From a bacterium (GTDB lineage: Bacteria > UBP13 > UBA5359), in the NCBI GenBank assembly GCA_028685295.1, contig JAQUEL010000001.1:31865-95864 (forward strand): a stretch of 64,000 nt of DNA. The letters are read 5' to 3'. Of this stretch, positions 489 to 46,153 are shown one piece after another. The position numbers were made by a program, and so were the translations under genes. Each line of letters starts with the position of its first letter. The stretch's first letter is position 1. Below the pieces are notes generated by a model that worked only from the letters and a program-made list of their open reading frames with translations, made no database searches and was not told where the DNA came from.

Positions 489-2834
489 ATGGAGGCTGCA
501 AATTCTGCAAGGTATGATCTCCTGCAAATATTTAATACGCAGGATATCATTGATCTTGAAAGGGCATCAGCACATTTGATTGGTGCTGATATTCATATAT
601 GGGGTCCTTCGGGGAGCATTTCCGGTACCGGTATTGATAATACAACAATCTCCTGGGAAGAGATTGTTGCTGCCGTAGGTGGCGGTAACTTTATTCGTTG
701 CGGTATTTCCGGCAGGGATTATTGTCTGGCGCCTATTATGCTGAAAGATAAGCTGTTGGCAGCTATCCTGGCCGGGCCCTTCGATGCTATGGAAGATGAT
801 TGGCGGGCGGCATCTTCTTTTCTGACCGCCCTCAGCCGCATAGTATCCAATATCATCGCTGCATCCAGGCGCAATTTTGATCTTTATCAGCAGGCGGAAG
901 CCGATCTTCATCTTAAAGTAAAGGAACTGTCATATCTGTTTGAGACAAGTAAATCTTTGCATGGTCAACTTGACTTTGAAGAGAATTCCAACTGTTTTCT
1001 GCATAAGGTAATGGAGTTTTCCGGGGCAAAAACCGGCATAATAATGATACTCGACGAAGAGAAACAGATCATTCGTCATTTGGCATCCGCCGGTTGCTCA
1101 CCCATGATAAGAAGCATGGAGCTGTCACCGGGAGAGGATCTCAGCGGGAAGATAATAGAGACCGGTGAATACGGCATTATTGCTGATATGAACGAAAGTG
1201 AGCTTCCAGAGCGGGATGATTTTCGTTTTTCGTTGGGTAAGACGGTGACAATAATATCGATACCTTTGAAAGTTGAAGGCAGAAGCCTGGGCGTTTTGCA
1301 CCTGGGTTACAGACAGAAATATGATCCTTCCACAGAGGAGATCAACCTTCTTACTGTAGTTGCCCATGAAGCGGCTGTTGTCATAGAGCACGGGCGCCTC
1401 TTCAAGGAAGTTTCCAGGCTGGCGATAACAGACGGTCTGACCAGACTTAATAACCACAGATACCTGCAGCAGCGCCTTGATGGTGAATTGGAGCGGGCTA
1501 AACGTTTCCAGCGACCACTTTCCGTATTGATGCTTGATATAGATCATTTCAAGAGATATAACGATCGCTTCGGGCATTTGGCCGGCGATATTCTGTTGAA
1601 GCGCCTTTCCAGACTTCTTGAGAACAATACCCGGAGTATAGATATTCTGGCTCGCTATGGCGGTGAAGAGTTTTGTGTCGTATTGCCTGAAACTAGTGTA
1701 GCTGAAGCGGAATTAGTGGCTGAACGCATAAGAAGGGAAGTCAGGGAAACTTTGCATTACCATAATCAGGAGGATGGATCGGAGGGCAAAGTAACAATAA
1801 GTATAGGCATATCGACATTTCCCACCGATGGGTCCAACAAAACCATGCTTCTAGCTGCTTCAGACAAAGCGCTTTATAGGGCCAAGCAGACTGGTCGTAA
1901 CAGGGTGGTCCTGGCTTCACGCTTATCCAAGGATCTGATTGAAGGGGTTGCGGATGCTTTTAGCGGCGTCTCGGAAACCCAACAAGATAGCGAAGTTAAG
2001 GACTCTTTTCTCAATCGTTACAAGGTTCATCTTATAGTTCTGGTCGCAATGATCAACCTCTTTTCCCAGTTTATCTTTCGTTATAGCTATAATGATCTTA
2101 GTGGGATGCCCTATCTCTATTTGCATACCGTGATGGAGCTTTATTCGTCAGCGGTAGGCGTAATAATTTTTTATATCGCTTTTTCTGCTGCCAGACGGAC
2201 AGGAGATAGCCGTCTTTCTTTGTTGGGGAAGGCTTTTCTGGTAATGGCTTTGCTCGATCTTTTGCATCTCATGACATTTCCCGGGGGCATATCTATTTTA
2301 TCTCAAGGAAACGATGGAATGACTATCGGGCTCTGGATATGCTCACGTTTGATAGGCGCGTTCATGATCATTACAGCAGTCTTTATGCCTAAGAGAAGAG
2401 ATTATCTTCTTGTAGAGAACCCTCTTCAGGAGGCCCTATTGCCTATACTTATAGCATTGCTGCTTTATCTTCTGCTGGAATCATTTGCTCAGTTGAGACC
2501 GTTTACCTATATTCCTGGCAAGAGTGCAGGTGAACCGGCCATGTATATGGAAGCTATTATAGCTTTTCTTTATGTAGTGGCTGCACTGGGATTTATGAAG
2601 CTGCATCGCCAAGGCGGCGGATCTTTGATGCTGATGTTTATCATCGGTATGTTTGCTATGGCTTTTTCGGCAGTTAGTGTCGTTACTATGCTTGGAACCC
2701 ATAATTTGCTGGCGCATGTATATAAATCACTGGCCTGTTTGATAATTTTGGCCGGTTTCTGGTTGCTGGAGAGAGCCAGCGCATTAGAATCCGGCACGGC
2801 AACAGCAATATCCGGTGGCAATACTCGCCAGTGA
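489..2834 (+). CDS. sensor diguanylate cyclase: N-terminal unknown domain + GAF + GGDEF, followed by a C-terminal ~300-aa polytopic membrane domain
   Basis: 781-aa ORF. SD TAGGAG 6 nt before ATG 489. GGDEF signature RYGGEEF with DHFKRYND and KALYRAKQTGRNRV motifs. GAF-like block before it. C-terminal third is strongly hydrophobic with about 7 predicted helices. Confidence 0.85.
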   Translation: MEAANSARYDLLQIFNTQDIIDLERASAHLIGADIHIWGPSGSISGTGIDNTTISWEEIVAAVGGGNFIRCGISGRDYCLAPIMLKDKLLAAILAGPFDAMEDDWRAASSFLTALSRIVSNIIAASRRNFDLYQQAEADLHLKVKELSYLFETSKSLHGQLDFEENSNCFLHKVMEFSGAKTGIIMILDEEKQIIRHLASAGCSPMIRSMELSPGEDLSGKIIETGEYGIIADMNESELPERDDFRFSLGKTVTIISIPLKVEGRSLGVLHLGYRQKYDPSTEEINLLTVVAHEAAVVIEHGRLFKEVSRLAITDGLTRLNNHRYLQQRLDGELERAKRFQRPLSVLMLDIDHFKRYNDRFGHLAGDILLKRLSRLLENNTRSIDILARYGGEEFCVVLPETSVAEAELVAERIRREVRETLHYHNQEDGSEGKVTISIGISTFPTDGSNKTMLLAASDKALYRAKQTGRNRVVLASRLSKDLIEGVADAFSGVSETQQDSEVKDSFLNRYKVHLIVLVAMINLFSQFIFRYSYNDLSGMPYLYLHTVMELYSSAVGVIIFYIAFSAARRTGDSRLSLLGKAFLVMALLDLLHLMTFPGGISILSQGNDGMTIGLWICSRLIGAFMIITAVFMPKRRDYLLVENPLQEALLPILIALLLYLLLESFAQLRPFTYIPGKSAGEPAMYMEAIIAFLYVVAALGFMKLHRQGGGSLMLMFIIGMFAMAFSAVSVVTMLGTHNLLAHVYKSLACLIILAGFWLLERASALESGTATAISGGNTRQ

Positions 2835-2860
2835 AACAGATATTAGTTGGAGGTAATAGT

Positions 2861-3958
2861 ATGTCTATTGATGCATTGGTACGTTCCTGTATAGCGGATC
2901 TGGAGCCGTATGAGCCGGGAAAACCGATTGAGGAAGTGGAGAGAGAACTGGGCATAACAGGGGTAATCAAGATGGCATCCAATGAGAATCCGCTTGGACC
3001 GTCGCCATTGGCTGTTGAAGCTGTTCGCAAGGCAGCGGCTGGAATGCAGATATATCCTGACGGCAATGCTCATTATTTGAAAAAAGCACTTGCTTCCATG
3101 TTGAAAGTAGAATCTAATCAGCTCTTTATCGGTAACGGTTCGGATGAGATAATACACTTTTTAGGGATAACTTATCTTCATCCGGGAGATGAGGTAATAG
3201 TGGCTGACCCGTCATTTTCACGTTACGATTCAGCTGTTATCCTGATGAACGCCAGACTTATAAAGGTGCCTCTGAAGGATTTTCGGCATGATTTGGATGC
3301 CATGGCATCTAAATTCAGTGACAGGACAAAGCTGATTTTTATTTGTAATCCCAACAACCCGACAGGGACTATAGTAAGGCAAAATGAGGTAGAGCGCTTC
3401 CTGAAAAAGCTACCGGCCGATGCCATTGCCGTCTTCGATGAAGCATACTATGAGTATGTGGAAGCTGAGGATTATCCGGATAGTCTTCGCTATATCGGTG
3501 AAGGACGTCATATAGTGACTTTGCGCACTTTCTCCAAAATTTACGGTTTAGCCGGTTTGCGCGTGGGATATGCGGTCTCTTCACCGGAGATAATTGCTCA
3601 TCTCAACCGTGTCAAGGAACCCTTTAACGTCAATAGCCTGGCGCTGGCAGCGGCACAGGCCTCTTTGAACGATCCGGATCAGGTTAGGCGTAGCCGGCAG
3701 CTTGTTTCTGAAGGAAAGCGGTTCTTACAACAGAGCTTTACCGCTATGGGCCTGGATTATATGCCAACAGAGGCTAATTTTATTATGGTCAGGGTCGGCC
3801 TGGATTCAAGAGAGGTTTTCAGAGCCTTAATGTCCAAGGGAGTAATTATCAGAACAGGCGATATATTCGGGCTTTCGGACTATATCCGTGTTACCGTAGG
3901 CACTATGGGACAGAATGAAAGGTTTATAAAAGCCCTTTCAGATGTGCTTGAGAGATAG
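2861..3958 (+). CDS. hisC: histidinol-phosphate/aromatic aminotransferase (HisC family, class II PLP aminotransferase)
   Basis: Motifs ASNENPLGPSP, ICNPNNPTGT, TFSKIYGLAGLRVGYAV (PLP lysine region). Start moved to ATG 2861 (SD GGAGGT 7 nt upstream) rather than the ORF-track GTG 2831. Sits in an aromatic amino-acid gene block. Confidence 0.85.
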   Translation: MSIDALVRSCIADLEPYEPGKPIEEVERELGITGVIKMASNENPLGPSPLAVEAVRKAAAGMQIYPDGNAHYLKKALASMLKVESNQLFIGNGSDEIIHFLGITYLHPGDEVIVADPSFSRYDSAVILMNARLIKVPLKDFRHDLDAMASKFSDRTKLIFICNPNNPTGTIVRQNEVERFLKKLPADAIAVFDEAYYEYVEAEDYPDSLRYIGEGRHIVTLRTFSKIYGLAGLRVGYAVSSPEIIAHLNRVKEPFNVNSLALAAAQASLNDPDQVRRSRQLVSEGKRFLQQSFTAMGLDYMPTEANFIMVRVGLDSREVFRALMSKGVIIRTGDIFGLSDYIRVTVGTMGQNERFIKALSDVLER

Positions 3959-3988
3959 TAGTTTGCGTAGGAAGAAGAGGTAGAGGAT

Positions 3989-5011
3989 ATGATAATTATC
4001 ATGAAGCGGGAGGCGACTGAAGCCGATATACGTCAGGTTGTCAGCCGTCTGGGTGATAAGGGCTATGGGACTCATGTCTCCGAAGGTGTAGAGAAGACGA
4101 TAATAGGCGCTATCGGCGTACATAACGATGAGAAAGCTCTGCTGGCAGAGCAACTGGAAGCCATAACCGCTGTTGAAAAAGTCGTACCCATATTAAAGCC
4201 TTTTCGGCTGGTCGGCAGGGAATTTCAGCCTGAGAATACGATTATTAAAGTTGGCGGTGTAACCATAGGGGGAAATGCAGTGGTTATTTCCGCCGGGCCG
4301 TGTGCTGTGGAGGATCAAGAGCAGTTGCTGGAAACGGCGCAGGCCATCAAAGCTGTAGGAGCAAGCATACTGCGTGGGGGCGCATTCAAGCCCAGGACCT
4401 CTCCGTATGCCTTCCAAGGGCTTGAAGAGGAGGGGCTGAAGATACTGGCTGCGGCCAGGCAGGAAACCGGACTGCCTATTGTCACTGAAATCATGGATCC
4501 CCGCAGCGTAGATCTGGTAATGGAATATTCGGATATGCTGCAGATAGGTGCCCGAAATATGCAGAACTTCTTTCTCCTGAGAGAGGTTGGCAAATCCAAA
4601 AAGCCTGTTTTATTGAAACGGGGGCTGTCGGCTACTATTGAAGAACTGCTCATGGCGGCAGAGTATATCATGTCGGAAGGCAATACATCCGTCATACTTT
4701 GTGAGCGTGGGATCAGGACATTCGAGCCATACACTCGCAATACTCTCGATCTTAGTGCGGTGCCCTTGATTCGGGAGCTTTCTCATCTGCCTGTATGGGT
4801 GGATCCCAGCCATGGCACAGGACATTGGCGTCTGGTGGCACCGATGGCGCGTGCGGCCATAGCCGCCGGTGCTGACGGTCTGATGATAGAAGTGCATCCT
4901 CGTCCGGGTGAAGCGCTCTCCGACGGATCGCAATCACTTACATATGCAAACTTTGCCAGGTTAATGGCAGAGATCAAGCCTATTGCCGAGATTCTAGGGA
5001 GGACAGTCTAG
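3989..5011 (+). CDS. 3-deoxy-7-phosphoheptulonate (DAHP) synthase, type I-beta with N-terminal regulatory extension
   Basis: KDO8PS-like core motifs KPRTSPYAFQG, LQIGARNMQNF, KPVLLKRG, and PSH near the C-terminus. About 60-aa N-terminal extra domain. Confidence 0.85.
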   Translation: MIIIMKREATEADIRQVVSRLGDKGYGTHVSEGVEKTIIGAIGVHNDEKALLAEQLEAITAVEKVVPILKPFRLVGREFQPENTIIKVGGVTIGGNAVVISAGPCAVEDQEQLLETAQAIKAVGASILRGGAFKPRTSPYAFQGLEEEGLKILAAARQETGLPIVTEIMDPRSVDLVMEYSDMLQIGARNMQNFFLLREVGKSKKPVLLKRGLSATIEELLMAAEYIMSEGNTSVILCERGIRTFEPYTRNTLDLSAVPLIRELSHLPVWVDPSHGTGHWRLVAPMARAAIAAGADGLMIEVHPRPGEALSDGSQSLTYANFARLMAEIKPIAEILGRTV

Positions 5012-5012
5012 A

Positions 5013-5864
5013 ATGTCTCTCTACCATCGCTGTGCCATTGCCGGTCTTGGTCTGATCGGCGGCTCGCTGGGAATGGCTGTCAGACAGAACGGATTGGCCG
5101 AAGAGGTAGTAGGCCTGGCCAGATGTGCCCGGACAATTGAGAGAGCATTGGATATGGGGGCAGTGGACCGTGGAACCCTGGACCCGATAGAGGCTGTTAA
5201 GGGCGCCGATATACTTGTGCTGGCTGCTCCGGTAATGGCGTCCATAGATCTCGGCAGAATAATGATACCTCATATGAAGTCCGGATCGTTGATCACGGAC
5301 GTTTGCAGCACAAAGTCCATGCTGATTAATGAACTGAAGAAGATCAAGCCTGAAGGCGTCTCTTTCATCGGTGGACATCCTATGGCTGGTGCAGAGAAGG
5401 CCGGTATAGCATATGCCTCCCCGGATCTCTTTATAAACGCCAGATATCTTCTGACGCCGGTTGATGATCATGACGATCATACCAGCTGTTTGACGACGCT
5501 GGTGAAAGGAGTAGGCGCTTTGCCGGAGATTGTGGGCTTAGCAGAACATGATACTCTGGTAGCCATGGTCAGCCATCTACCGCATGCTGTGGCGCAATGC
5601 CTGGTGAATACTGTTGCCGATATGCAATTAGAGGAGCTGACACGGCTTGCCGCCGGCGGCTTCAAAGATATTACCCGGGTGGCCGGCAGCGATTCTAAGA
5701 TGTGGAATGATATCTATGTTAGTAATAAAATGGAAGTTCTTAAAGCATTGGCTCTATTCAGGAAGCAGCTTGATTATTTATCGGATATGATCTCCAGCAG
5801 CGACGAAAAGTCTTTACTGGAATTTCTGGAGAACGCCAAAGAATATAGGAACGGATTAAGCTGA
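5013..5864 (+). CDS. tyrA: prephenate dehydrogenase
   Basis: Rossmann motif IAGLGLIGGSLGMA at the N-terminus; TyrA-like length and core; context with aroA/DAHP synthase. Confidence 0.8.
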   Translation: MSLYHRCAIAGLGLIGGSLGMAVRQNGLAEEVVGLARCARTIERALDMGAVDRGTLDPIEAVKGADILVLAAPVMASIDLGRIMIPHMKSGSLITDVCSTKSMLINELKKIKPEGVSFIGGHPMAGAEKAGIAYASPDLFINARYLLTPVDDHDDHTSCLTTLVKGVGALPEIVGLAEHDTLVAMVSHLPHAVAQCLVNTVADMQLEELTRLAAGGFKDITRVAGSDSKMWNDIYVSNKMEVLKALALFRKQLDYLSDMISSSDEKSLLEFLENAKEYRNGLS

Positions 5865-7159
5865 TGAGCTGCAGAACGATATTACCATGTAGAAGCCTTG
5901 GTGGCGTAATCAGGGTTCCGGGTGACAAATCGATATCACACAGGGCGATTATGTTGGGATCGTTGGCAGAAGGAGATTCCGTTATTCATAATTTTCTAGA
6001 TTCGGCAGATTGCCGTGCAACGGTGAATATCTTCAGAATGCTGGGTGTTTCCATTGTACAGGAAGGCACCCATATAATTGTAAAGGGTCAGGGTGTACAG
6101 GGGCTGCATGAACCCGAAGATATTTTGCAGGTGGGCAATTCAGGTACTACAGCCAGGCTTATGTTGGGGCTTTTGGCAGGGTTGGATATGTTTGCAGTCA
6201 TAACCGGAGATGGATCTCTGCGAGAAAGACCGATGGATCGCGTTACCAGACCGCTCTCTCTAAGGGGAGCGAGCTTTCAGGGGCGCAGCGCCAGGATTTT
6301 GGCACCGGTAGCAGTCCGGGGCAGGCATCCGCTAGCAGGTTTGAGCTATAAAATTCCTGTGGCCAGCGCTCAGATAAAAACATCATTGTTGCTCTCAGGC
6401 CTCTTTGCCGAGGAACCCACTAATATATGGGAGCCGTATAAATCACGCGACCATGGAGAGCGTATGTTGGCTGCCTTGGGGGCGGATATCTCTATCGACG
6501 GCAACAGCGTTGCTCTTAACCCCGGCGGCACTATGACAGGTAGAGAGATCAGTATACCGGGTGATATTTCGTCGGCTGCTTTCTTTATGGTACTGGCCGC
6601 ATCTCTTCCCGGTGCCGCCCTCACTTTAGTCGATATAGGGCTTAACCCTACCCGAACAGGTATCATAGATGTTCTTCGTGCTATGGGCGCCGAGTTGAAA
6701 GTAGTTAATGTCAGAGAGGAAGCCGGAGAGCCGGTAGGTAATATATCGATAACCGGTGGTAAATTGCGCGGGACAATAATCGATGCTCCGCTGATACCGC
6801 GACTTATCGATGAAATCCCGGCCCTTGCCGTGGCCGCTGCTCTGGCTGATGGGGAAACGCTGATCAAGGATGCCGCCGAGCTGCGGGTAAAGGAAACGGA
6901 TAGGATTGCTTCCGTATGCAGTATGCTGCACGCTTTTGGTGTGAGAGCTATGGAAAAGGAGGACGGTATGAGAATTACCGGCGGCGGCAGACTACAGAGT
7001 GCTGTTGTCGATAGCAACGGCGATCATCGCATTGCTATGTCAGCCTCGATAGCGGCAGCCTTGGCCTCGGGTGAAAGCCGTATTATGAACACGGATTGTA
7101 TAGATACTTCCTTCCCTAATTTTTATAAGATATTGGAGGAGGTATGTGCCGGTGCATAA
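5864..7159 (+). CDS. aroA: 3-phosphoshikimate 1-carboxyvinyltransferase (EPSP synthase)
   Basis: ATGA start/stop overlap with tyrA. Motifs VPGDKSISHRAIMLGSLAEG, LGNSGTTARL, RPMDRV. 431 aa. Confidence 0.9.
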   Translation: MSCRTILPCRSLGGVIRVPGDKSISHRAIMLGSLAEGDSVIHNFLDSADCRATVNIFRMLGVSIVQEGTHIIVKGQGVQGLHEPEDILQVGNSGTTARLMLGLLAGLDMFAVITGDGSLRERPMDRVTRPLSLRGASFQGRSARILAPVAVRGRHPLAGLSYKIPVASAQIKTSLLLSGLFAEEPTNIWEPYKSRDHGERMLAALGADISIDGNSVALNPGGTMTGREISIPGDISSAAFFMVLAASLPGAALTLVDIGLNPTRTGIIDVLRAMGAELKVVNVREEAGEPVGNISITGGKLRGTIIDAPLIPRLIDEIPALAVAAALADGETLIKDAAELRVKETDRIASVCSMLHAFGVRAMEKEDGMRITGGGRLQSAVVDSNGDHRIAMSASIAAALASGESRIMNTDCIDTSFPNFYKILEEVCAGA

Positions 7160-7838
7160 TATTGCAGGGGATCTGATTATTGCCATAGACGGCCCGGCCG
7201 GAGCCGGTAAGAGCAGTGTAGCAAGGGGCTTGGCTGAATATTTAGGCTATACTTATATAGATACTGGTGCCATGTACAGAGCTGTGGCCTGGCTCGGTTT
7301 GCGTTGCGGCATTGTGGAGAATGAAGAGGAGCTGACCAGGCTGGCGTCGGATATGAAATTCGAGTTTATCCGGCAAGACGGTGCTCAGCGGATAGTGGTA
7401 AACGGTTGTGACATCACTGATGAAATAAGGACGCCAAAGATATCACGTCTGGCTTCACCGATATCGGCTGTTGCTGGAGTCAGAGAACAACTGTCGGCGT
7501 TGCAACGGCGTTTCGGTAAGCGAGGCGGAGTAGTTATGGAGGGCAGAGATATCGGCACCGTTATCTTCCCTGAGGCACAGGTGAAGATATTCCTGACGGC
7601 CTCCGTGGAGGAACGTGCCAGAAGACGCTGGCTGGAACTGCAGAAAAGAGGCAGCGATATTCGTTATGAGCTGGTGCTTGCCGATATTGAAGAACGTGAT
7701 AATCGTGATAGTAATCGGGCGCTGGCGCCACTGCGCCCAGCGAAAGATGCGGTTCTTATAGATAGCGATAAAAAGAGTATCAATGACGTGATACAGGAGA
7801 TAATATCCGTATGTGAAGGAGTAACGGCAAAGAGATGA
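7146..7838 (+). CDS. cmk: cytidylate kinase
   Basis: P-loop IAIDGPAGAGKSSVAR, DTGAMYRA motif. GTG start overlapping the aroA end. Confidence 0.9.
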   Translation: MPVHNIAGDLIIAIDGPAGAGKSSVARGLAEYLGYTYIDTGAMYRAVAWLGLRCGIVENEEELTRLASDMKFEFIRQDGAQRIVVNGCDITDEIRTPKISRLASPISAVAGVREQLSALQRRFGKRGGVVMEGRDIGTVIFPEAQVKIFLTASVEERARRRWLELQKRGSDIRYELVLADIEERDNRDSNRALAPLRPAKDAVLIDSDKKSINDVIQEIISVCEGVTAKR

Positions 7839-8494
7839 TGCTATATCGTCCCGGACGAGCTATATCCTGGGCTTTTTTCAAAATATTCTGCAGGATGGAG
7901 GTTGTGGGAGCGGATATTCCAAGGAGCGGCGGCTGCTTGCTGGTAGCCAATCACATCAGCCATCTGGATCCCCCTCTTGTCGGCGCAGCTATCAGACGGA
8001 TGGTCTATTTCATGGCCAAGCAAGAGCTTTTTGAGATTCCTATACTGGGTTCTATCATTGCCGGAACGGGGGCCTTTCCCGTAAAACGCGGTACCGCTGA
8101 TAGAGGTGCGTTGAAGCGTGCTTGGACGTTGCTGCGTGACGGTAATGTAGTCTGTATATTTCCGGAAGGACGGCGCAGCCCGGACGGCACCTTGCAATCG
8201 GCTGAAGCCGGTGCAGCTCTGGTGGCAGCGCAAAGCAATGTGCCGGTAGTGCCGCTAGGTCTGATCGGCACGGCTGATGTTTTACCGCCGGGCGGAGTTG
8301 TTTTGCACCCGCATCCGGTAAAGGTAATTGTTGGTGAACCCTTGCACCTGGATGATCTACGCGCAGAAAAGTACGATCGCCTTTTACTGAATGAGATCGG
8401 GCGGCGTATGATGGATGGCATAGCCGGGGCCGTTAGGCAGGGCCTTAATGCCAACGCAGGGTTACAGAAGAGAGGAAATCATAAATCGAAATGA
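7835..8494 (+). CDS. plsC: 1-acyl-sn-glycerol-3-phosphate acyltransferase
   Basis: HxxxxD acyltransferase motif (NHISHLDPP) and FPEGRRS motif. ATGA overlap with cmk. Confidence 0.8.
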   Translation: MMLYRPGRAISWAFFKIFCRMEVVGADIPRSGGCLLVANHISHLDPPLVGAAIRRMVYFMAKQELFEIPILGSIIAGTGAFPVKRGTADRGALKRAWTLLRDGNVVCIFPEGRRSPDGTLQSAEAGAALVAAQSNVPVVPLGLIGTADVLPPGGVVLHPHPVKVIVGEPLHLDDLRAEKYDRLLLNEIGRRMMDGIAGAVRQGLNANAGLQKRGNHKSK

Positions 8495-8521
8495 TATATG
8501 CATCTACGTATTCGGGCGGGG

Positions 8522-8550
8522 TTGGAGGAAAAGCAATCCTGTATTATAAT
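8522..8550 (+). promoter_or_regulatory. sigma70-like promoter (TTGGAG-17nt-TATAAT) upstream of the SurA-N/TPR gene
   Basis: TTGGAG at 8522..8527 and TATAAT at 8545..8550, spacing 17 nt, in a 184-nt intergenic region. Confidence 0.4.
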
Positions 8551-8678
8551 GAGATGGCTGATCAGCGAAAAGAATTCCGTGGCCAGGATTAACATTTCCG
8601 CTTTGTTTGAGAAGTGTGCTCAGGATAACCGGAATTCCGGCCTCTGATTTCTTAAGACTAAAGGAGAAGAGATAGGAT

Positions 8679-9881
8679 ATGTCGATAATCTATATCCGAA
8701 AAAAATTCGGAACTACTATGAAATGGGGAATGGGCGTTATTGCCGCCATATTCCTCATCTCCGCCTTTTATATGTACGGCGGGAACATGATGTCGAATGC
8801 CGAAAAGGGGCAGAACTTATCCCGGGAGGTGGCGATTGTCGGCGGAAAACCCTTGCTCCGAGCAAACTTCGATAGGGAGTTTGCCAGGCGTGTTGCAGCA
8901 TATAAGGAACAGCCGGGTGGTGGGCAATTTAAAGAGACCAATGCTACATCTGTGAAAGCACAACTACTGGAAGAAATGTCGGATAGAGTGCTACTTCTGC
9001 AGGAGGCCGACAGGACGAGGATCAAAATCGGTCGTAAAGATGTGCAGAAACAGATAGATGAAATTAAAAAATCTTTCCCTTCGGATAAAGCGTTCCGTGA
9101 GCGTCTGAGATCTCTAGGCTATGATATCAATATGCTGCGGCGTGAAATCACTGAAGGCATGAGACTTCAGGCATTGGTAGATAAACAGAAACAGGCTGTC
9201 AGCGTCAGCGATGCCGATGTCAAGAAAGCGTATAAAGATCAATACAAGAAGGAACCTGCCGGAAAAGAATTTAATGCCAAGGCTAAAGAGGTTCGCGAGC
9301 AATTGCTTGGAGAGAAGCAATCTACTGCTCTTGCCAAGTGGATGGCCGATCTTCGTAAGAAGGCCGACATACAGGTAGTCGATGCCGAAATCAGAGCTTA
9401 TAAGCATCTATCGGAGGGGAAGGACGATAAAGCTTTGCTGGCCTTTGAAAAGGCACTGAAGCAGAACCCTTACGATCCTTATATCGCTTCCGTCTATTAC
9501 CAGATAGGGCAGTTATATGAAAAAAAGAGTCGGCTTGCTAAAGCGGAAGAAGCCTATGATAGAGGTCTCAAACATGGGAGCAGCGCGGATTTACATTTGG
9601 CGCTGGGAAATATTTATCGCAAACAGGGCAAGCGGGATGCGGCGTTGCTTCAATATGAGGATGCGTCCGATCTATCCTATGCCGATTTCTTTATGCATTA
9701 TAATCTCTCCGGCATATATAAGGAGATGGGGCTGCAGAATAAAGCGGCGGATGAGGAGAAACGGGCTCAGGAGATATACGGCAAGCAGATGGCACAGATG
9801 ATGCAAGCTCAGCAACGGCAGCAGGCGGCACAGAACGCTGAACAGGGTTCCGCTAAGCCGGCGGATAAAGAAAAGAAGTAA
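8679..9881 (+). CDS. periplasmic chaperone-like protein: signal/TM anchor + SurA N-terminal-like domain + C-terminal TPR repeats (no PPIase domain)
   Basis: N-terminal hydrophobic segment, SurA/PpiD-like chaperone region, TPR-like repeats (ALLAFEKALKQNPYDPY..., LALGNIYRKQGKRDAALLQYEDA). Strong SD AAGGAGAAGAG upstream. Confidence 0.6.
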   Translation: MSIIYIRKKFGTTMKWGMGVIAAIFLISAFYMYGGNMMSNAEKGQNLSREVAIVGGKPLLRANFDREFARRVAAYKEQPGGGQFKETNATSVKAQLLEEMSDRVLLLQEADRTRIKIGRKDVQKQIDEIKKSFPSDKAFRERLRSLGYDINMLRREITEGMRLQALVDKQKQAVSVSDADVKKAYKDQYKKEPAGKEFNAKAKEVREQLLGEKQSTALAKWMADLRKKADIQVVDAEIRAYKHLSEGKDDKALLAFEKALKQNPYDPYIASVYYQIGQLYEKKSRLAKAEEAYDRGLKHGSSADLHLALGNIYRKQGKRDAALLQYEDASDLSYADFFMHYNLSGIYKEMGLQNKAADEEKRAQEIYGKQMAQMMQAQQRQQAAQNAEQGSAKPADKEKK

Positions 9882-9991
9882 AATCTCATTTGCGAAGGAC
9901 TTTAAGAGCTGGAGATGAGCAGGGCATATTTAAGAATATGCCCTGCTTTATATGCCGTTCTATTTTGCAGCCAGGGAGGTATGAACAAGAG

Positions 9992-11095
9992 ATGGTTGAT
10001 GATGGCATCAGCAGAGAGTTTGAACAGAAGAGAACTCGCATAAGAGGGTATATGCAAAGGCAGGGACTGGATGTTCTTTTGCTGGGGAGGCAGGCTAACG
10101 TTACATGGTATCTGTGTGGTGGTGAGGCGCACGTCTCTATTGCCTCTGAAAAAGCGGCGGCAACTTTGTTGCTGACGCAGGAAAAGGATTATCTCATTAC
10201 CAATAATATAGAAGCGCCCAGATTAAGAGAAGAAGAATTAAGCGGCGTGGAAATAAGTTTGATTGAAGAACCCTGGTATGCTGTGCCGTCAGCTGTACAG
10301 GAGCGCGTATCGGATAAATCGGCAGGATCGGATATTCCCTTTGCCGGTGCCGCGGATGTGTCAGCCGACATAGCAACTCTGCGATACTCACTATTGCCGG
10401 AGGAAATCGACAGATATACGCAAGTAGGAGCGGATACGGCCGCTGCTATGGATGAAGTGGCATTATCCATCAAACCCGGTATGACAGAGTGCGCCATTGC
10501 CGGTATTCTGGCAGAGGCTCTTATGGAGCGGCATGTTATTCCGGTAACATTATTGATAGCTGCGGATGAACGTATCGAGCGTTATCGCCATCCTTTGCCG
10601 ACTGATAAGGTTTTCAATCGTGTTGCCATGCTGGCGGTCTGCGGTCGTCACGGCGGATTGATAACCTCCATGACCAGAATGGTGCATATCGGTCAGATAC
10701 CCTCAGAATTGCGACGTAAGCATGACGCAGTAACCAGGGTGGATGCCGCTTATATCGAGGCTACCACGCCGGGAGTTGCAATAGCCAAGGTTTTCGATTG
10801 TGGCCGTCGTGTTTATGAAGAGAGCGGATATGCCGATGAATGGCGCTGGCATCACCAGGGTGGCGCTACCGGCTATACAGGTAGAGATTACAAGGGGATG
10901 CTCTCTTCAACAGAGATAGTGCAGCCCTACCAGGCCTTTGCTTGGAATCCGTCTATAAGCGGTACAAAATCAGAGGATACTATATTGGCTATGCCTGACG
11001 GATCTTGCATTATTTCCAAGACAAGTGCCTGGCCATTATTATCGCATGAGATAAACGGTAAAATCTATCATCGCCCGGATATATTGGTGCTTTGA
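9992..11095 (+). CDS. M24-family (creatinase/prolidase pita-bread fold) protein, possibly non-canonical metal site
   Basis: Creatinase/prolidase-like N- and C-terminal organisation. The H-G-x-G-H region is degenerate (WRWHHQGGATGYTG). Start uncertain (ORF opens at 9890; ATG 9992 chosen after GGGAGG). Confidence 0.5.
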   Translation: MVDDGISREFEQKRTRIRGYMQRQGLDVLLLGRQANVTWYLCGGEAHVSIASEKAAATLLLTQEKDYLITNNIEAPRLREEELSGVEISLIEEPWYAVPSAVQERVSDKSAGSDIPFAGAADVSADIATLRYSLLPEEIDRYTQVGADTAAAMDEVALSIKPGMTECAIAGILAEALMERHVIPVTLLIAADERIERYRHPLPTDKVFNRVAMLAVCGRHGGLITSMTRMVHIGQIPSELRRKHDAVTRVDAAYIEATTPGVAIAKVFDCGRRVYEESGYADEWRWHHQGGATGYTGRDYKGMLSSTEIVQPYQAFAWNPSISGTKSEDTILAMPDGSCIISKTSAWPLLSHEINGKIYHRPDILVL

Positions 11096-11200
11096 TATGA
11101 TGCCGAAGCAAAAGAGGTTATCTGCAAGAAACGACGGCCGAAGGTACTGTAGAAGGATATCTTCCCTTCTTAGAGAATAAGTATGTATACCGTTTAAGAG

Positions 11201-11986
11201 GTGAGGTACTTGTCGAATCTAAAAAAAGCATTGCCCGGAATTATGGTTTTGATACTCGGTTACTTAGCAATGAGTATCATCAGCAGTATAACTGGGAGCC
11301 AGGCAGGAATAAGCGGTGCATTACCTTATTTTATCGGCATAATTACGCTTTGCCTGTCGACATATTTTCTTTCAAGGATGGATTTCTCCAGTGGCTTGAT
11401 CGCCGGCTTGGTAATAAGCGGTCTACTCTTTCTTATTGCCTCCAGCTATCTGCTACATGAAGCCATGATTAACCTTTGGATAATGGCTTCTGCCATATGG
11501 ATGGCTTATATCGTAAGCCTGCTGATTCGGGAGGTGAATATACTTTTCCCTATAGCTTTGGTAGCTGCGTTGGCTGATATTTGGAGTGTTTACTACGGTC
11601 CCACTGCCAAGATGCTGCAGAATGAAGCCCTTGTTGATAAGATGATCGTTACTTATCCGGGACCCGCTGGTGGCCCGCATTTGCCGCTCTTCGGTTTGGG
11701 AGATGTGCTCTTCTTTTTCTTATTCGTTCTGGTAATGAGAAAGCTTAAGCTGTTTAATCCTTTCAGATATATTCTACTCTCCTTGTCCTTAGTCGTAGCC
11801 GGTATAATAGCTTTTGCTTACCGGCAAAGTGTTCCAGGCATTCCTTTCATGTCAGCAGCGTTGCTGTCAACTTTAAGTGGAGAGTTGAAGCTCAGCCATG
11901 ATGAGCGTCGCTATCTAGCTTATCTGTTTGGCCTGATCTGTTTCTTGATTGCGATTGGTATATCTTTCACTTTTTTGGGTAGGTGA
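11201..11986 (+). CDS. polytopic membrane protein with GxGD-type intramembrane aspartyl protease-like motifs (presenilin/SPP A22-like)
   Basis: About 9 predicted TM helices. Motifs AALADIWSVYYGP (compare presenilin YD-LVAVL-PKGPL) and LFGLGDVLFFFLFVLV (compare GLGDFIFYSVLV); PAL-like PGIPFMSAAL. The CDS itself is solid; the family assignment is by motif only. Confidence 0.45.
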   Translation: MRYLSNLKKALPGIMVLILGYLAMSIISSITGSQAGISGALPYFIGIITLCLSTYFLSRMDFSSGLIAGLVISGLLFLIASSYLLHEAMINLWIMASAIWMAYIVSLLIREVNILFPIALVAALADIWSVYYGPTAKMLQNEALVDKMIVTYPGPAGGPHLPLFGLGDVLFFFLFVLVMRKLKLFNPFRYILLSLSLVVAGIIAFAYRQSVPGIPFMSAALLSTLSGELKLSHDERRYLAYLFGLICFLIAIGISFTFLGR

Positions 11987-11992
11987 GGATTA

Positions 11993-13237
11993 TTGTCGGA
12001 ACCGGCTGCACTGTTGCCTCTGATCCTCATAAGCACTGTTGTTGTGGCCGCATATTTGTTTTATAGATTACGTCGGCGCTTGCTGCAACAGCAGAAAAAC
12101 TTAGAAGATCTTCTGCTGCAAAAGCAGAGAACGGAAAACATGCTTAGCCGGCGCCTTTCCGAGATGTCTGTTATTCACGAAGTAAGCCGTGCATTAGGTT
12201 CGAGCCTGGATCTTGAAAAAACGCTGGATATGATCGTTGATGTTGCTCTCAGGGTGATGGAGGCCGAATACGGTTCCCTTTATATGATTGATAATACGCG
12301 TAAAGTCCTTATCCCCAGGCGTGTGGAGCCTGTATGCTGCCCGGATGATACGGTAGAGCTGCCGCTGGGCGACAGCATAACCGGTTGGGTAGCTATGACT
12401 GGAGAAGCCCAGAACGTAGCGGATATCCATAAGGATTGGCGTTTCAGAGATCCTCTGGGACGCGGCAACCTGTTGCGAACGCAGTTGAGCGTGCCCCTAT
12501 GGTCAAAAGGATCGGTTATTGGTGTCCTCAATGTTTTTAATAAAAAAAGCGGGTCGGTCTTCGACACCGATGATATGCAATTTATGAATTTGCTGGCAGC
12601 CTCGGCAGCACGGGCAATAGAGAATGCTCGCCTTTATACCGAATTGAAGAATCAGGCGATAATTGATCATCTTACCGGGTTATATAATTTCAGCTATTTT
12701 CAGAAGCGTTTTGAAGAAGAGGTTAGAAGAGCCTTTCGTTACTCCAGAGCGCTGGCTTTAATCATGTTCGATCTGGATGATTTCAAGGCTTACAACGATC
12801 GTTTTGGGCATCTTCTAGGCAATGATGCTCTCTTTATTGTTGGACGAATTATCAAGGACAGCATACGGGATGTGGACATGGCCGCCAGGTTTGGTGGCGA
12901 AGAATTTGTGTTGCTTATGCCGGAAACAGGAGTTGAAGCTGTCCTTTCCGCCAACCGTATCAGGGAGAGGGTTAGCAAGGCGCATGAGCAGGCAACGAAT
13001 AAAATATGGTTGGCAGAAAGATTGACAATTAGTGGCGGAGTTGCTATCTTTCCTCAAGGCGGTTCAACATCGGCTGAATTGTTGGGTAATGCGGATAAGG
13101 CACTTTATTGCGCCAAGAGTACTGGTAAAAACAAGATAATAAATTTTGACGGGGGTATGTCAAAAACAGATGCTGGATATGAAACTTATAAGGCAGAATC
13201 CGGAAATAGTAGCGGAAGCACTGAGAAGACGCCATAG
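11993..13237 (+). CDS. diguanylate cyclase with N-terminal TM helix, coiled-coil, GAF domain and GGDEF domain
   Basis: TTG start 6 nt after the stop of the upstream gene, with SD AGGTGAGG overlapping that stop. GGDEF motif [32 protein letters not shown]. Confidence 0.85.
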
Positions 13238-14432
13238 CGATATTGATCTTACGAAATTTCAAGAGAACGATCGGCTTCGTCGAGAGTTGCTTATAGAAGT
13301 AGAAGCACTTAAGAATAAAAGAAACGAGTTCTCCAGAGTCATTGGCGAACGTAAGAGAAACAAGCAGAACGCCGATGAGTTGATTGCAGAAATGCAGGTG
13401 GTATCCTCTCGTATCAAGGAGCTTGATGAGCAACTGCAGGTCTGCGAAGCAACTTTGAACAGCTTGCTGCTGGAAATCCCTAATATACCGCTTCCCGATG
13501 TTCCTGAAGGTATCGGCGAGCAGGACAACGTTGAGTTAAGGCGATGGTCCGAGCCGCGCAGTTTTGCTTTTGAACCGCTGGCACATTGGGATCTGGGAGA
13601 GAAGCTGGATATTCTCGATTTCGAAAGAGGGGCTAGGCTGGCCGGTGCCAGGTTTACTGTTATGAAGGGTGCCGGAGCTCTTCTTGAAAGAGCATTAGTG
13701 AACTTCATGCTCGATCTTCATACCGGAAAGCACGGCTACAGGGAGATATTCCCACCTTTTCTAGTGAACGCCGATGCTATGACGGGTACGGGACAACTGC
13801 CTAAATTTGAAGAGGATCTCTTCAAAACCACTACAGGGTATTATCTTATACCTACGGCAGAGGTACCGGTAACCAATTTACATCGAGAAGAGATTCTGGA
13901 TGATAATGATCTGCCTGTATGTTATGCTGCCTATACAGCCTGTTTTCGTGCCGAAGCCGGCTCATATGGAAAGGATACCCGCGGGCTGATAAGGCAACAC
14001 CAATTTAATAAAGTGGAACTTGTCAAATTAACCCGCCCTGAAGATTCGGCTGCAGAACTGGAAAAACTTATTGCGGATGCCGAAGAGGTGTTGCAGCTGT
14101 TGGGGCTGCCATACCGGGTGATAATTCTGTGTACTGCCGATCTGGGCTTCTCCTCTGCAAAAACATATGATATTGAAGTTTGGTTCCCTCAGCAGGGGCT
14201 CTATCGGGAGATATCGTCCTGTAGCTCTTTTACCGATTTTCAAGCTCGTAGAGCGGGAATACGCTATCGTTCGGCATCAGGCCGTACAGAGTATGTTCAT
14301 ACTATCAACGGCTCCGGGCTGGCCGTCGGACGGTGTCTGGCGGCAATACTTGAGAACTATCAGACTGAAGGGGGTAATGTAATCATTCCAGAGGCTCTCA
14401 GACCATATATGGGGGGCAAGGGGATTATATAA
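13170..14432 (+). CDS. serS: seryl-tRNA synthetase
   Basis: Canonical N-terminus [12 protein letters not shown]; class II aaRS core. Start at ATG 13170 rather than the ORF-track TTG 13146. Overlaps the upstream GGDEF gene by 68 nt. Confidence 0.93.
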
Positions 14433-14486
14433 ATAAACCTGCATAATTTTATCTTCGTCAGGGAATGGTAATAGAGGTGAGCGCTA

Positions 14487-15377
14487 TTGCGAAGCTTGAA
14501 GAGATTGCCCGGTTACAGATTAACAGAGCATAACTGGAAGAGAATTGCGATTGATTATGCCGGTATATTTATCGGCGTGACGATGGTCGCAATCGGTCTG
14601 GATGTTTTTTTGGTTCCCAATAAGATCGCCGGTGGCGGCGTATCCGGCCTGGCGATAATTCTGCATCATCTGTTACGCGTTCCTGTGGGAACGGCCATTC
14701 TCGTCATCAATATACCGCTTTTCTATGCCGGCATAAAGATTTTGGGAGCCGGCTTTGGCCTCAGGACATTGATTGCCACTATTATCCTCTCCGTCGAGGT
14801 GGATCTCTTTGCACCGTTTATCCCGGTTATAACCCACGATCTGCTTTTGGCAGCCATATATGGAGGTCTGCTTACCGGTATAGGCATGGGTATTGTTTTC
14901 CGCTTTCGGGGTACTACGGGCGGCACGGATATGATAGCTCGGTTGGTACACCGGTTTACCTCTCTTACCGTTGGGCAAGCATTGCTGATTGTAGATTCCA
15001 TAATTATTGCTATAGCCGGAGTGGTTTTTAATGCCGAGTTGGCTCTTTTTGCCTTAATCAATCTGTATATTAATACCCGTGTGATAGATCTGATACAAGA
15101 GGGTGTCAGCGTTAGCAAAATGGCGATAATTATCTCAGATTATTCTGAAGATATTGCAGCCGGCATATTGGGAGACCTTGGTAGAGGCGTAACAGGGTTG
15201 GACGGCGAAGGGCTGTATAGCGGGCAGAAGCGTCAGGTGCTGCTTTGTGTCATCAATAGAGTCGAAGCAGGAAAACTTAAAGATATTATTAATGGGATTG
15301 ATCCGGATGCCTTCGTAATTATGACCGATACCCATGAGGTTCTAGGAGAAGGTTTTAAACGGCATCAGGTATTTTGA
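14487..15377 (+). CDS. YitT-family membrane protein (DUF161 + DUF2179)
   Basis: TTG start with SD AGAGGTGAG 6 nt upstream. YitT-like motifs IAIDYAGIFIGV, GGGVSGLAII; C-terminal soluble DUF2179-like domain. Confidence 0.8.
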   Translation: MRSLKRLPGYRLTEHNWKRIAIDYAGIFIGVTMVAIGLDVFLVPNKIAGGGVSGLAIILHHLLRVPVGTAILVINIPLFYAGIKILGAGFGLRTLIATIILSVEVDLFAPFIPVITHDLLLAAIYGGLLTGIGMGIVFRFRGTTGGTDMIARLVHRFTSLTVGQALLIVDSIIIAIAGVVFNAELALFALINLYINTRVIDLIQEGVSVSKMAIIISDYSEDIAAGILGDLGRGVTGLDGEGLYSGQKRQVLLCVINRVEAGKLKDIINGIDPDAFVIMTDTHEVLGEGFKRHQVF

Positions 15378-46064: not shown

Positions 46065-46153
46065 TGGTGCCGAAGGTCGGAGTCGAACCGACACGGGGTC
46101 ACCCCCAACGGTTTTTGAGACCGTCGTGTATACCAATTCCACCACTTCGGCAC
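46065..46153 (-). tRNA. tRNA-Leu (anticodon CAA), class II with long variable arm, CCA encoded
   Basis: Reverse complement GTGCCGA...GGTTCGACTCCGACCTTCGGCACCA. 7-bp acceptor stem; anticodon loop CUCAAAA (CAA); long variable arm; T-loop GGTTCGACTCC. Confidence 0.8.

What the first reader, a model, noticed from the sequence alone, without database searches (positions are those of the whole stretch)
11201..13237. Putative GxGD intramembrane aspartyl-protease-like protein translationally coupled to a GGDEF-GAF diguanylate cyclase
Seen in sequence: the 261-aa polytopic protein (about 9 TM) carries two Asp motifs in adjacent helices, AALADIWSVYYGP and LFGLGDVLFFF, plus a PAL-like PGIPFMSAAL. These resemble the YD / GxGD / PAL signature of presenilin and signal-peptide-peptidase (A22) proteases. 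Its stop codon is embedded in the SD (AGGTGAGG) of the downstream membrane-anchored GAF-GGDEF cyclase, whose TTG start lies 6 nt later, implying co-translation. A presenilin-like protease paired with a c-di-GMP synthase is, to my knowledge, not a described module. It could be a regulated-proteolysis/second-messenger pair or a new membrane sensor complex.
Basis: partly seen in the sequence, partly recalled or inferred. Interest (0 to 1): 0.6.

Follow-up and report, generated by a model that had tools for sequence, protein, structure and literature searches.

The report
Unannotated bacterial presenilin-like membrane protease gene
The small membrane protein is a distant bacterial relative of presenilin and signal-peptide peptidase, from a protein family with no Pfam or NCBIfam model, but its position next to a c-di-GMP synthase gene is found only in this organism and one sister species, not across the family.

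Summary
A 258-aa (not 261-aa) nine-helix membrane protein is encoded at 11210..11986. Its stop codon lies inside the Shine-Dalgarno sequence of a membrane-anchored GAF-GGDEF gene that starts 6 nt later.

The protein alone hits nothing in Pfam, NCBIfam or the PDB. An exhaustive HMMER search found 216 distant relatives (15-29% identical in the alignment). In 122 of them aligned:
- both Asp and the first Gly of GxGD are invariant;
- the third motif reads P-A-L-P by consensus (the window protein has PGIP).

The GGDEF pairing is not a conserved module. It occurs only here and in one sister species with the same wider gene order. It is absent from the flanking DNA held for the 38 other family loci, where the usual downstream gene is leuS. 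The cyclase's anchor also has the wrong orientation for an SPP-like enzyme.

The parts
11200..11206 (+). Shine-Dalgarno GGTGAGG for the presenilin-like gene.
   Evidence: Sequence read. The same motif, then ATAC and TTG, occurs in the sister species, where the GTG is out of frame.
11210..11986 (+). Presenilin/SPP-like GxGD membrane protein gene (258 aa, TTG start, nine transmembrane helices).
11576..11578 (+). It lies in helix 5 (aa 109-128), within the motif A-D-I-W-S-V-Y-Y-G-P.
   Evidence: Asp in 122 of 122 family members. A sub-threshold profile stretch aligns it with the YD Asp of presenilin.
11693..11704 (+). G162-L-G-D165, the GxGD motif at the N-terminal cap of helix 6 (aa 163-178).
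   Evidence: G162 and D165 are each present in 122 of 122 members. Position 164 is G95, A11, T9, S6, M1. The motif aligns with GLGD of PS1/PS2.
11834..11845 (+). P209-G-I-P212, the PAL-motif equivalent, just before helix 8 (aa 211-221).
   Evidence: Family column counts: P 121/122; A64/G33/V16; L 117/122 (the window protein has I); P84/V30. The motif aligns with PALP of PS1/PS2.
11981..11988 (+). AGGTGAGG Shine-Dalgarno for the GGDEF gene. It contains the TGA stop (11984-11986) of the presenilin-like gene.
   Evidence: The sister species has AGGTGA (stop) followed by TTG 4-7 nt later.
11993..13237 (+). Membrane-anchored GAF-GGDEF diguanylate cyclase gene (414 aa, TTG start). One N-out/C-in anchor (about aa 7-24, nt about 12011-12064), GAF (nt 12206-12622), GGDEF (nt 12656-13135), I-site RDVD (12866-12877) and GGEEF (12893-12907).
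   Evidence: Pfam GGDEF 7.8e-41 and GAF_2 3.8e-19. NCBIfam TIGR00254 3.5e-45. Motif positions.
13179..14432 (+). serS (seryl-tRNA synthetase). Its start (ATG 13170 or 13179) overlaps the 3' end of the GGDEF gene by 59-68 nt. It marks the end of the tightly packed gene string.
   Evidence: Gene calls with Seryl_tRNA_N and tRNA-synt_2b. Start candidates.

Best explanation
Window 11210..11986 encodes a distant bacterial homologue of the presenilin / signal-peptide-peptidase (GxGD, MEROPS A22-like) intramembrane aspartyl proteases. It belongs to a protein family that no Pfam or NCBIfam model covers.

Proposed mechanism (inferred by homology):
- Asp123 in helix 5 and Asp165 in the GLGD motif at the start of helix 6 face each other inside the membrane and hydrolyse a transmembrane helix of a substrate.
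- The P-G-I-P (family consensus P-A-L-P) element before helix 8 shapes the active site, as PAL does in presenilin.

Orientation: positive-inside counts place the loop between the two catalytic helices, and the PAL loop, on the outer side of the membrane. That is the SPP orientation, not the presenilin one. The expected substrates are therefore N-in/C-out helices such as signal-peptide remnants or type II anchors.

Helix layout: the catalytic Asp sit in helices 5 and 6 of nine (four helices before, one extra after the PAL helix), not in helices 6 and 7.

The GAF-GGDEF gene 6 nt downstream is very probably co-transcribed and translationally coupled. I read that as operon packing specific to this lineage, inside a dense same-strand string of housekeeping genes (plsC, ppiD-like, M24 peptidase, this gene, the cyclase, serS, yitT). 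I do not read it as a conserved protease-cyclase module.

Shown: homology, fold, residue conservation, gene junction, and absence of the pairing elsewhere. Inferred: catalytic activity, orientation, substrate class and co-translation.
For: - Single-sequence searches are empty. An exhaustive phmmer search of 1.84 billion representatives gives 216 relatives at E<=1e-3, mostly 260-310 aa.
- In the 122-sequence alignment A2 (15-29% identity to the query apart from sister-species P0002 at 75%), D123, G162 and D165 are invariant and P209 and L211 are at least 96% conserved. The consensus reads DxWSVxxGPT ... GxGDFxF ... PALPF.
- The A2 profile against PDB sequences hits presenilin-1 CTF at E 4.7e-6 and PS2/PS1 at 3.5e-5 to 4.1e-5, aligned from GLGD through PALP. 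A sub-threshold stretch aligns the first Asp with the YD Asp and the following GP..MLVE.
- Three of 122 members give sub-threshold hits to Pfam Presenilin (best 4e-6). Two related Peptidase_A22B hits also appeared: one A2 member (0.0073) and P0087 (9e-4).
- The AlphaFold2 model has pLDDT 91.1, pTM 0.88 and nine transmembrane helices.
- In Foldseek against the PDB, the first 12 hits are all presenilin-1 or SPPL2a, with probability up to 0.97.
- Orientation: mean K+R per loop across the family is 1.6 (before the Asp helix), 2.7 (after the GxGD helix) and 2.4 (after the PAL helix), against 0.39 in the PAL loop.
- Pairing: a GGDEF gene sits next to this gene only in the window organism (L001-L006) and in sister species GCA_028699365.1, which shares the same wider gene order. 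No GGDEF domain occurs in the flanks held for the 38 other loci, even at E<=1.
- leuS lies directly downstream in at least 19 of those 38 loci, across several phyla, and also on one ENA contig with gene calls but no DNA.
Against: - No curated model (Pfam Presenilin, Peptidase_A22B or SPP; NCBIfam) reaches its threshold for this protein or for any relative tested. The Presenilin gathering score is 34.3 bits and the one score printed, for a weaker hit, was 13 bits.
- The Tyr of the YD motif is absent: the family has V or A before the Asp.
- The window protein has PGI rather than PAL.
- The helix count around the catalytic pair differs from the 9-TM presenilin plan.
- Foldseek E-values are weak (0.05) and global TM-scores are about 0.4.
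- I could not inspect model coordinates, so the Asp-Asp distance is unverified.
- No biochemical data exist for any family member.
- The 6-nt junction is kept in the sister species, so a lineage-specific functional link to the cyclase is not excluded.
- Thirty-four of the 38 comparison loci come from one motif-defined clade, found with the pattern G[MVI]GDFxF[LFM]AL.
Confidence: 0.75

Rival explanations
1. A lineage-specific protease-cyclase module. The presenilin-like protein cleaves, or forms a sensor complex with, the single-pass anchor of the co-translated GAF-GGDEF cyclase, and so controls its location or activity and thereby c-di-GMP.
For: The stop codon lies inside the cyclase's Shine-Dalgarno sequence, with the TTG start 6 nt later. 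The tight junction is kept in the sister species. The cyclase has one transmembrane helix, which is the kind of substrate intramembrane proteases use. It looks catalytically competent, with GGEEF and an I-site.
Against: The pairing is seen only in two closely related genomes in which about 20 kb of surrounding gene order is also the same, so the adjacency carries little information. No GGDEF gene occurs in the flanks held for the 38 other family loci. The family's predicted SPP-like orientation implies N-in/C-out substrates, but the cyclase anchor is N-out/C-in (MSEPAA-TM-RLRRR). The cyclase gene also overlaps serS, which points to general tight gene packing.
Confidence: 0.1
2. A presenilin-fold protein that is not a protease, for example a scaffold, channel or lipid-handling protein that kept the fold but took on another function.
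For: No curated protease family model passes its threshold. The YD Tyr is missing and the helix layout is shifted. The conserved position next to leuS gives no hint of a proteolytic pathway.
Against: The residues that stay invariant across relatives with about 15-29% overall identity are exactly the catalytic ones of GxGD proteases: both Asp, the motif Gly and the PAL Pro and Leu. That pattern is hard to explain without catalysis.
Confidence: 0.1
3. A type IV prepilin-peptidase / preflagellin-peptidase (A24) relative, the GxGD family usually found in bacteria.
For: It is a bacterial polytopic protein with a GxGD motif.
Confidence: 0.02
4. A chance resemblance of short motifs in an unrelated hydrophobic protein.
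For: The single sequence has no significant hit to any protease family.
Against: The family profile scores E 5e-6 against presenilin, in register over about 85 residues. The high-confidence model retrieves only presenilin-type folds at the top. The motif residues are invariant.
Confidence: 0.01

Closest known systems
Signal peptide peptidase / SPP-like proteases (MEROPS A22B; human SPPL2a structure 9k93)
Presenilin-1/2 (MEROPS A22A, catalytic subunit of gamma-secretase)
   Different: The predicted membrane orientation is opposite. There is no long cytoplasmic loop or endoproteolysis site. No homology search for nicastrin, APH-1 or PEN-2 was run; none of the neighbouring genes has domains suggesting one. 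All relatives tested score below Pfam's Presenilin gathering threshold.
Archaeal presenilin homologue PSH / MCMJR1 (PDB 4hyc/4hyg; PMC2947513)
   Different: No sequence-profile hit to PSH at E<=10. PSH has the canonical layout with Asp in TM6 and TM7 (my own knowledge), whereas here they are in helices 5 and 6. The family is bacterial (Armatimonadota, WS1, Hebobacteria, Abditibacteria, some Myxococcales and Bacillota MAGs).
Membrane-anchored GAF-GGDEF diguanylate cyclases
   Same: The downstream gene is an ordinary member, with full-length GGDEF and GAF hits, GGEEF and an RxxD I-site.
   Different: Nothing unusual apart from its upstream neighbour and its 59-68 nt overlap with serS.

Membership tests
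Presenilin/SPP-type GxGD intramembrane aspartyl proteases (MEROPS A22; Pfam PF01080, PF04258, PF06550) | Polytopic membrane protein with two conserved Asp in adjacent transmembrane helices | tested here: met
   D123 lies in helix 109-128 and D165 at the start of helix 163-178 of a pLDDT-91 model. Both are present in 122 of 122 relatives.
Presenilin/SPP-type GxGD intramembrane aspartyl proteases (MEROPS A22; Pfam PF01080, PF04258, PF06550) | Second Asp lies in a G-x-G-D motif | tested here: met
   GLGD at aa 162-165. G162 is present in 122/122 members, position 164 is G in 95/122 (otherwise A, T, S or M), and D165 in 122/122. It aligns to GLGD of PS1/PS2.
Presenilin/SPP-type GxGD intramembrane aspartyl proteases (MEROPS A22; Pfam PF01080, PF04258, PF06550) | First Asp lies in a Y-D motif | tested here: not met
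   The window protein has A-D. The family has V55/A46 before the Asp and no Tyr among the commonest residues listed. The Asp and the downstream G-P are conserved.
Presenilin/SPP-type GxGD intramembrane aspartyl proteases (MEROPS A22; Pfam PF01080, PF04258, PF06550) | P-A-L motif at the start of the helix after next from the GxGD helix | tested here: inconclusive
   The family consensus is P-A-L-P (P 121/122, A 64/122, L 117/122) and aligns with PALP of presenilin. The window protein itself has P-G-I-P, a conservative variant.
Presenilin/SPP-type GxGD intramembrane aspartyl proteases (MEROPS A22; Pfam PF01080, PF04258, PF06550) | Scores above the curated threshold of a family HMM | tested here: not met
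   The window protein gives no Pfam or NCBIfam hit even at E<=1. Among 122 relatives, only three hit Presenilin (best E 4e-6; gathering score 34.3 bits) and one hits A22B, at E 0.0073.
Presenilin/SPP-type GxGD intramembrane aspartyl proteases (MEROPS A22; Pfam PF01080, PF04258, PF06550) | Presenilin fold | tested here: met
Presenilin/SPP-type GxGD intramembrane aspartyl proteases (MEROPS A22; Pfam PF01080, PF04258, PF06550) | Nine transmembrane helices with the catalytic Asp in TM6 and TM7 | tested here: not met
   There are nine helices, but the Asp are in helices 5 and 6, with four helices before and three after (PAL before helix 8 and an extra helix 9). A crude hydropathy count gives four helices before the Asp helix in 70 of 122 relatives and three in 37.
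Presenilin/SPP-type GxGD intramembrane aspartyl proteases (MEROPS A22; Pfam PF01080, PF04258, PF06550) | Asp-dependent cleavage of transmembrane substrates that is sensitive to transition-state inhibitors | not testable with these tools
   Needs biochemistry, for example the MBP-TMD assay used for MCMJR1 (PMC2947513).
Type IV prepilin / preflagellin peptidases (MEROPS A24, Pfam Peptidase_A24) | Match to the family HMM or fold, with pilin or archaellin gene context | tested here: not met
Diguanylate cyclase (GGDEF) - downstream gene | Full-length GGDEF domain with a GG[DE]EF active-site motif | tested here: met
   PF00990 7.8e-41 over profile positions 1-161 of 161, and TIGR00254 3.5e-45. GGEEF at aa 301-305 and an RxxD I-site at aa 292-295.
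Proposed conserved 'presenilin-like protease + GGDEF cyclase' module | The two genes are adjacent across the protease family | tested here: not met
   They are adjacent only in the window organism and sister species GCA_028699365.1. None of the 38 other loci has a GGDEF domain in the flanks held (up to 4-6 kb each side), even at E<=1. leuS lies downstream in at least 19 of them.

The most novel reading that the evidence does not exclude
In this lineage the presenilin-like protease was recruited to control the co-translated membrane-anchored GAF-GGDEF cyclase. It would either clip the cyclase's single anchor to release or inactivate it, or act as its membrane-embedded sensor partner. That would make it the first link between GxGD intramembrane proteolysis and c-di-GMP signalling.

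More broadly, the whole family may be the missing bacterial counterpart of SPP. It could clear signal peptides or type II anchors in Armatimonadota, WS1 and related phyla.
Probability: 0.1. Interest if true: 0.75.

Novelty: new variant of a known kind. Interest (0 to 1): 0.5.

Why it matters
GxGD intramembrane proteases of the presenilin/SPP type are described in eukaryotes and, through PSH, in archaea. The reviews and papers I could search list only prepilin peptidases as the bacterial GxGD enzymes (PMC2947513, PMC4343526; searches).

This finding adds a bacterial family of at least 216 clusters at 50% identity. Its members are labelled 'hypothetical protein' in every database entry seen, and it has no Pfam or NCBIfam model. 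It keeps the catalytic signature and the fold, but has a shifted helix layout and an SPP-like orientation.

Why that could be useful:
- It offers small, cofactor-free bacterial models for the presenilin mechanism.
- It gives a candidate signal-peptide or type II anchor peptidase for poorly studied phyla.
- It justifies a new family model for genome annotation.

The c-di-GMP link, which made the finding look most exciting, is probably incidental.

Tried and rejected
- Single-sequence searches (Pfam, NCBIfam, PDB phmmer) found nothing.
- The word-indexed protein search found only the organism itself and its sister species. Repeating it with the family alignment added little.
- The search for related loci with the full 122-sequence alignment failed because no stretch was conserved enough. 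A 14-sequence sub-alignment worked, but it samples mainly one clade.
- The afdb50 fold library was unavailable.
- Two guesses at which relatives carry the sub-threshold Presenilin hits mostly missed. They did show that the gathering score (34.3 bits) is not reached.
- Apparent in-frame fusions of the presenilin-like gene to LeuRS in L035 and L014 looked like artefacts of my greedy ORF caller in GC-rich DNA. In L035 the long ORF is the LeuRS frame extended upstream in a different frame. L014 was not re-checked.
- GAF-domain proteins 1-5 kb from the gene in some Armatimonadota loci have no GGDEF domain and are not adjacent or on the same strand, so I dismissed them as a link.
- The promoter and terminator scan of 8400-14700 gave no more sites than shuffled sequence.
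- Rfam found only a distant tRNA.
- Literature searches found no description of bacterial presenilin homologues or of presenilin-type proteolysis of diguanylate cyclases. That is absence in the searched library only.
Full report
**1. The observation**

The ORFs are as described: 11201..11986 (+, 261 aa from GTG) and 11993..13237 (+, 414 aa from TTG). The three motifs (AALADIWSVYYGP, LFGLGDVLFFF, PGIPFMSAAL) are present.

The junction, read, is GGT-AGG-TGA-GGA-TTA-TTG:
- The TGA stop (11984-11986) lies inside AGGTGAGG (11981-11988).
- The TTG start follows after 6 nt.

The start needs one correction. GTG 11201 is part of a GGTGAGG Shine-Dalgarno sequence (11200-11206) that precedes TTG 11210. 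Gene callers in six public copies of this contig start at that TTG and give 258 aa (P0001, 100% identical). In the sister species the corresponding GTG is out of frame.

The downstream protein is an ordinary diguanylate cyclase:
- GAF and full-length GGDEF domains (Pfam 3.8e-19 and 7.8e-41; TIGR00254 3.5e-45).
- GGEEF at aa 301-305 and an RxxD I-site five residues upstream.
- A single N-terminal hydrophobic helix followed by RLRRR.

**2. What the membrane protein is**

On its own the sequence matches nothing: no Pfam family at E<=1, only noise in NCBIfam, and no PDB chain at E<=10. The word-indexed search of 5.8 billion proteins found only the same organism and one sister species at 74-88% identity.

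An exhaustive phmmer search of 1.84 billion cluster representatives found 216 proteins at E<=1e-3. Apart from the sister-species sequence, they are about 23-44% identical over the matched stretches and mostly 260-310 aa.

I aligned 122 of them (A2). They are 15-29% identical to the query, apart from sister-species P0002 at 75%, yet the motif columns are highly conserved:

| Position | Count in 122 sequences |
|---|---|
| D123 | D 122 |
| G162 | G 122 |
| 164 | G 95, A 11, T 9, S 6, M 1 |
| D165 | D 122 |
| P209 | P 121 |
| 210 | A 64, G 33, V 16 |
| L211 | L 117 (window protein has I) |

The consensus reads PVAxVAAxxDxWSVxxGPT ... GxGDFxFxALF ... PALPF.

The A2 profile against PDB sequences hits the presenilin-1 C-terminal fragment at E 4.7e-6, and full-length PS2 and PS1 at 3.5e-5 to 4.1e-5. 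The alignment runs in register from GLGDFIF to PALP. A sub-threshold stretch aligns the first Asp and its G-P...ML tail with presenilin's YD...KGPLRMLVE. Three of 122 members give sub-threshold hits to Pfam Presenilin (best 4e-6) and one to Peptidase_A22B. P0087, a longer relative, also hits A22B at 9e-4. None of the relatives tested reaches the Presenilin gathering score of 34.3 bits.

AlphaFold2 run with A2 gives a confident model, with pLDDT 91.1, pTM 0.88 and nine long helices. Structure searches agree with the sequence evidence:
- In Foldseek, the first 12 hits are all presenilin-1 or SPPL2a (probability up to 0.97), although E-values are weak.
- No prepilin-peptidase-type structure or model appears anywhere.

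Homology to the presenilin/SPP class is therefore well supported. Chance resemblance is excluded.

**3. How it differs from the known families**

- The catalytic Asp sit in helices 5 (aa 109-128) and 6 (aa 163-178) of nine.
- Four helices precede them.
- The PAL-type element precedes helix 8, and an extra helix 9 follows.
- Presenilin, SPP and PSH have the Asp in TM6 and TM7 and PAL at TM9 (my own knowledge).
- A crude hydropathy count finds four helices before the Asp helix in 70 of 122 relatives and three in 37.
- The Tyr of YD is replaced by V or A.

Orientation: mean Lys+Arg counts across the family are 1.6, 2.7 and 2.4 in the loops before the Asp helix, after the GxGD helix and after the PAL helix. 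The PAL loop has 0.39. By the positive-inside rule, the catalytic loop and the PAL loop face outward. That is the SPP orientation and the inverse of presenilin's. By analogy, N-in/C-out helices (signal-peptide remnants, type II anchors) are the expected substrates. This last step is inference.

**4. Who has it, and what lies next to it**

Every database name seen is 'hypothetical protein', apart from a few JGI 'SirB2' labels.

A genome scan with a 14-sequence sub-alignment returned 34 loci. Most are from Armatimonadota (Fimbriimonadales, Abditibacteriales, Armatimonadia). The rest include Candidatus Hebobacteria, Candidatus Zipacnadum and a Bacillota MAG. Other members come from candidate division WS1 and a Myxococcales MAG.

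| Test | Result |
|---|---|
| tblastn with the window's GGDEF domain against all loci, E<=1 | Hits only in the window organism (L001-L006) and the sister species (L007, L008); none in L009-L047 |
| Gene directly downstream on the same strand | leuS in at least 19 of the 38 other loci, with gaps of about -28 to +290 nt, often followed by comEA and comEC |
| Fimbriimonadales | A radical-SAM gene lies upstream |
| Myxococcales | MaoC and thiolase genes follow |

An ENA contig with gene calls but no DNA shows the same leuS arrangement.

The sister species (GCA_028699365.1) keeps the order membrane protein, cyclase, serS and the tight junction. It also keeps most of the surrounding 20 kb, except for a Crp-like gene inserted upstream. 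The adjacency therefore says little.

In the window the cyclase gene also overlaps serS by 59-68 nt. The whole stretch from 489 to 15377 is a dense same-strand gene string. Promoter and terminator scans show nothing above background.

**5. Mechanism and rivals**

Best explanation (confidence 0.75): this is a stand-alone GxGD intramembrane aspartyl protease homologue from a family that Pfam and NCBIfam do not cover. It has SPP-like orientation and is probably co-transcribed and translationally coupled with the cyclase, without a conserved functional tie to it.

Rivals:
- Protease-cyclase module (confidence about 0.1). The conserved 6-nt junction and the cyclase's single anchor speak for it. The lack of conservation across the family speaks against it. 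So does the cyclase anchor's N-out/C-in orientation, which is the wrong way round for an SPP-oriented enzyme.
- Non-catalytic presenilin-fold protein (about 0.1). This is disfavoured because the invariant residues are exactly the catalytic ones.
- A24 prepilin-peptidase relative, or chance resemblance. Both are effectively excluded.

**6. Comparison, novelty and verdict**

The protein works like SPP or PSH and shares their fold and signature. I do not file it as a member of Pfam Presenilin, Peptidase_A22B or SPP, for three reasons: the HMM thresholds are not met, the YD Tyr is missing and the TM6/TM7 layout is not met. It is best described as a new, distant family within the presenilin/SPP superfamily, which makes it a new variant of a known kind.

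Literature searches found bacterial GxGD enzymes described only as prepilin peptidases. They found no bacterial presenilin homologue and no presenilin-type processing of diguanylate cyclases. That is absence from the searched library only, not proof of novelty.

Interest is 0.5. The protease family is worth a model and an experiment. The c-di-GMP pairing that motivated the finding is most likely incidental.

Noticed in passing
L010-L015, L017-L020, L025, L034, L035, L037, L038, L040, L042, L045, L047 (e.g. L013 2733-3572 then 3585-6233): Across several phyla the presenilin-like gene lies directly upstream of leuS on the same strand, with gaps of about -28 to +290 nt (most under 75 nt). comEA and comEC often follow. 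This is the family's commonest gene context and it is unexplained. ComEA is itself a type II-anchored protein (my own knowledge).
   Followed up: partly
window 489-2834 (+): A second diguanylate cyclase lies about 8.4 kb upstream in the same gene string. It is 781 aa with MASE3, GAF and GGDEF domains. Its GGDEF domain is 44% identical to that of the 11993-13237 gene.
   Followed up: no
window 13170-13237: The 3' end of the GGDEF gene overlaps the start of serS (ATG 13170 or 13179) by 59-68 nt in a different frame. The sister species has a 35-nt overlap. A promoter-like site (TTGACA, 17 nt spacer, TATCTT, with an extended TG) lies at 13022-13050 inside the GGDEF gene.
   Followed up: partly
L008 9243-9938: The sister species has a Crp-family regulator gene (cNMP_binding + HTH_Crp_2, 231 aa) inserted between the M24 peptidase gene and the presenilin-like gene. 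It is absent from the window.
   Followed up: no
window 11200-11212 and 11981-11995: Both the presenilin-like gene and the GGDEF gene use a TTG start codon preceded by the same GGTGAGG Shine-Dalgarno core at very short spacing (3-4 nt).
   Followed up: no
proteins P0122, P0087, P0049 and one member of A2: Some family members carry extra domains: an N-terminal CarboxypepD_reg-like domain (P0122, P0087), a HisKA_7TM-like region (P0049), or a GT4 glycosyltransferase domain.
   Followed up: no
window 11210-11986, residues about 146 and 161-162 of the model: The AlphaFold model has a small beta-bridge joining the end of the catalytic loop to the residues just before GLGD. It resembles the strand before GLGD that pairs with substrate in gamma-secretase (my own knowledge). 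I could not inspect the coordinates.
   Followed up: no
window 46068-46151 (-): The only Rfam match in the window at gathering threshold is a single tRNA gene.
   Followed up: no
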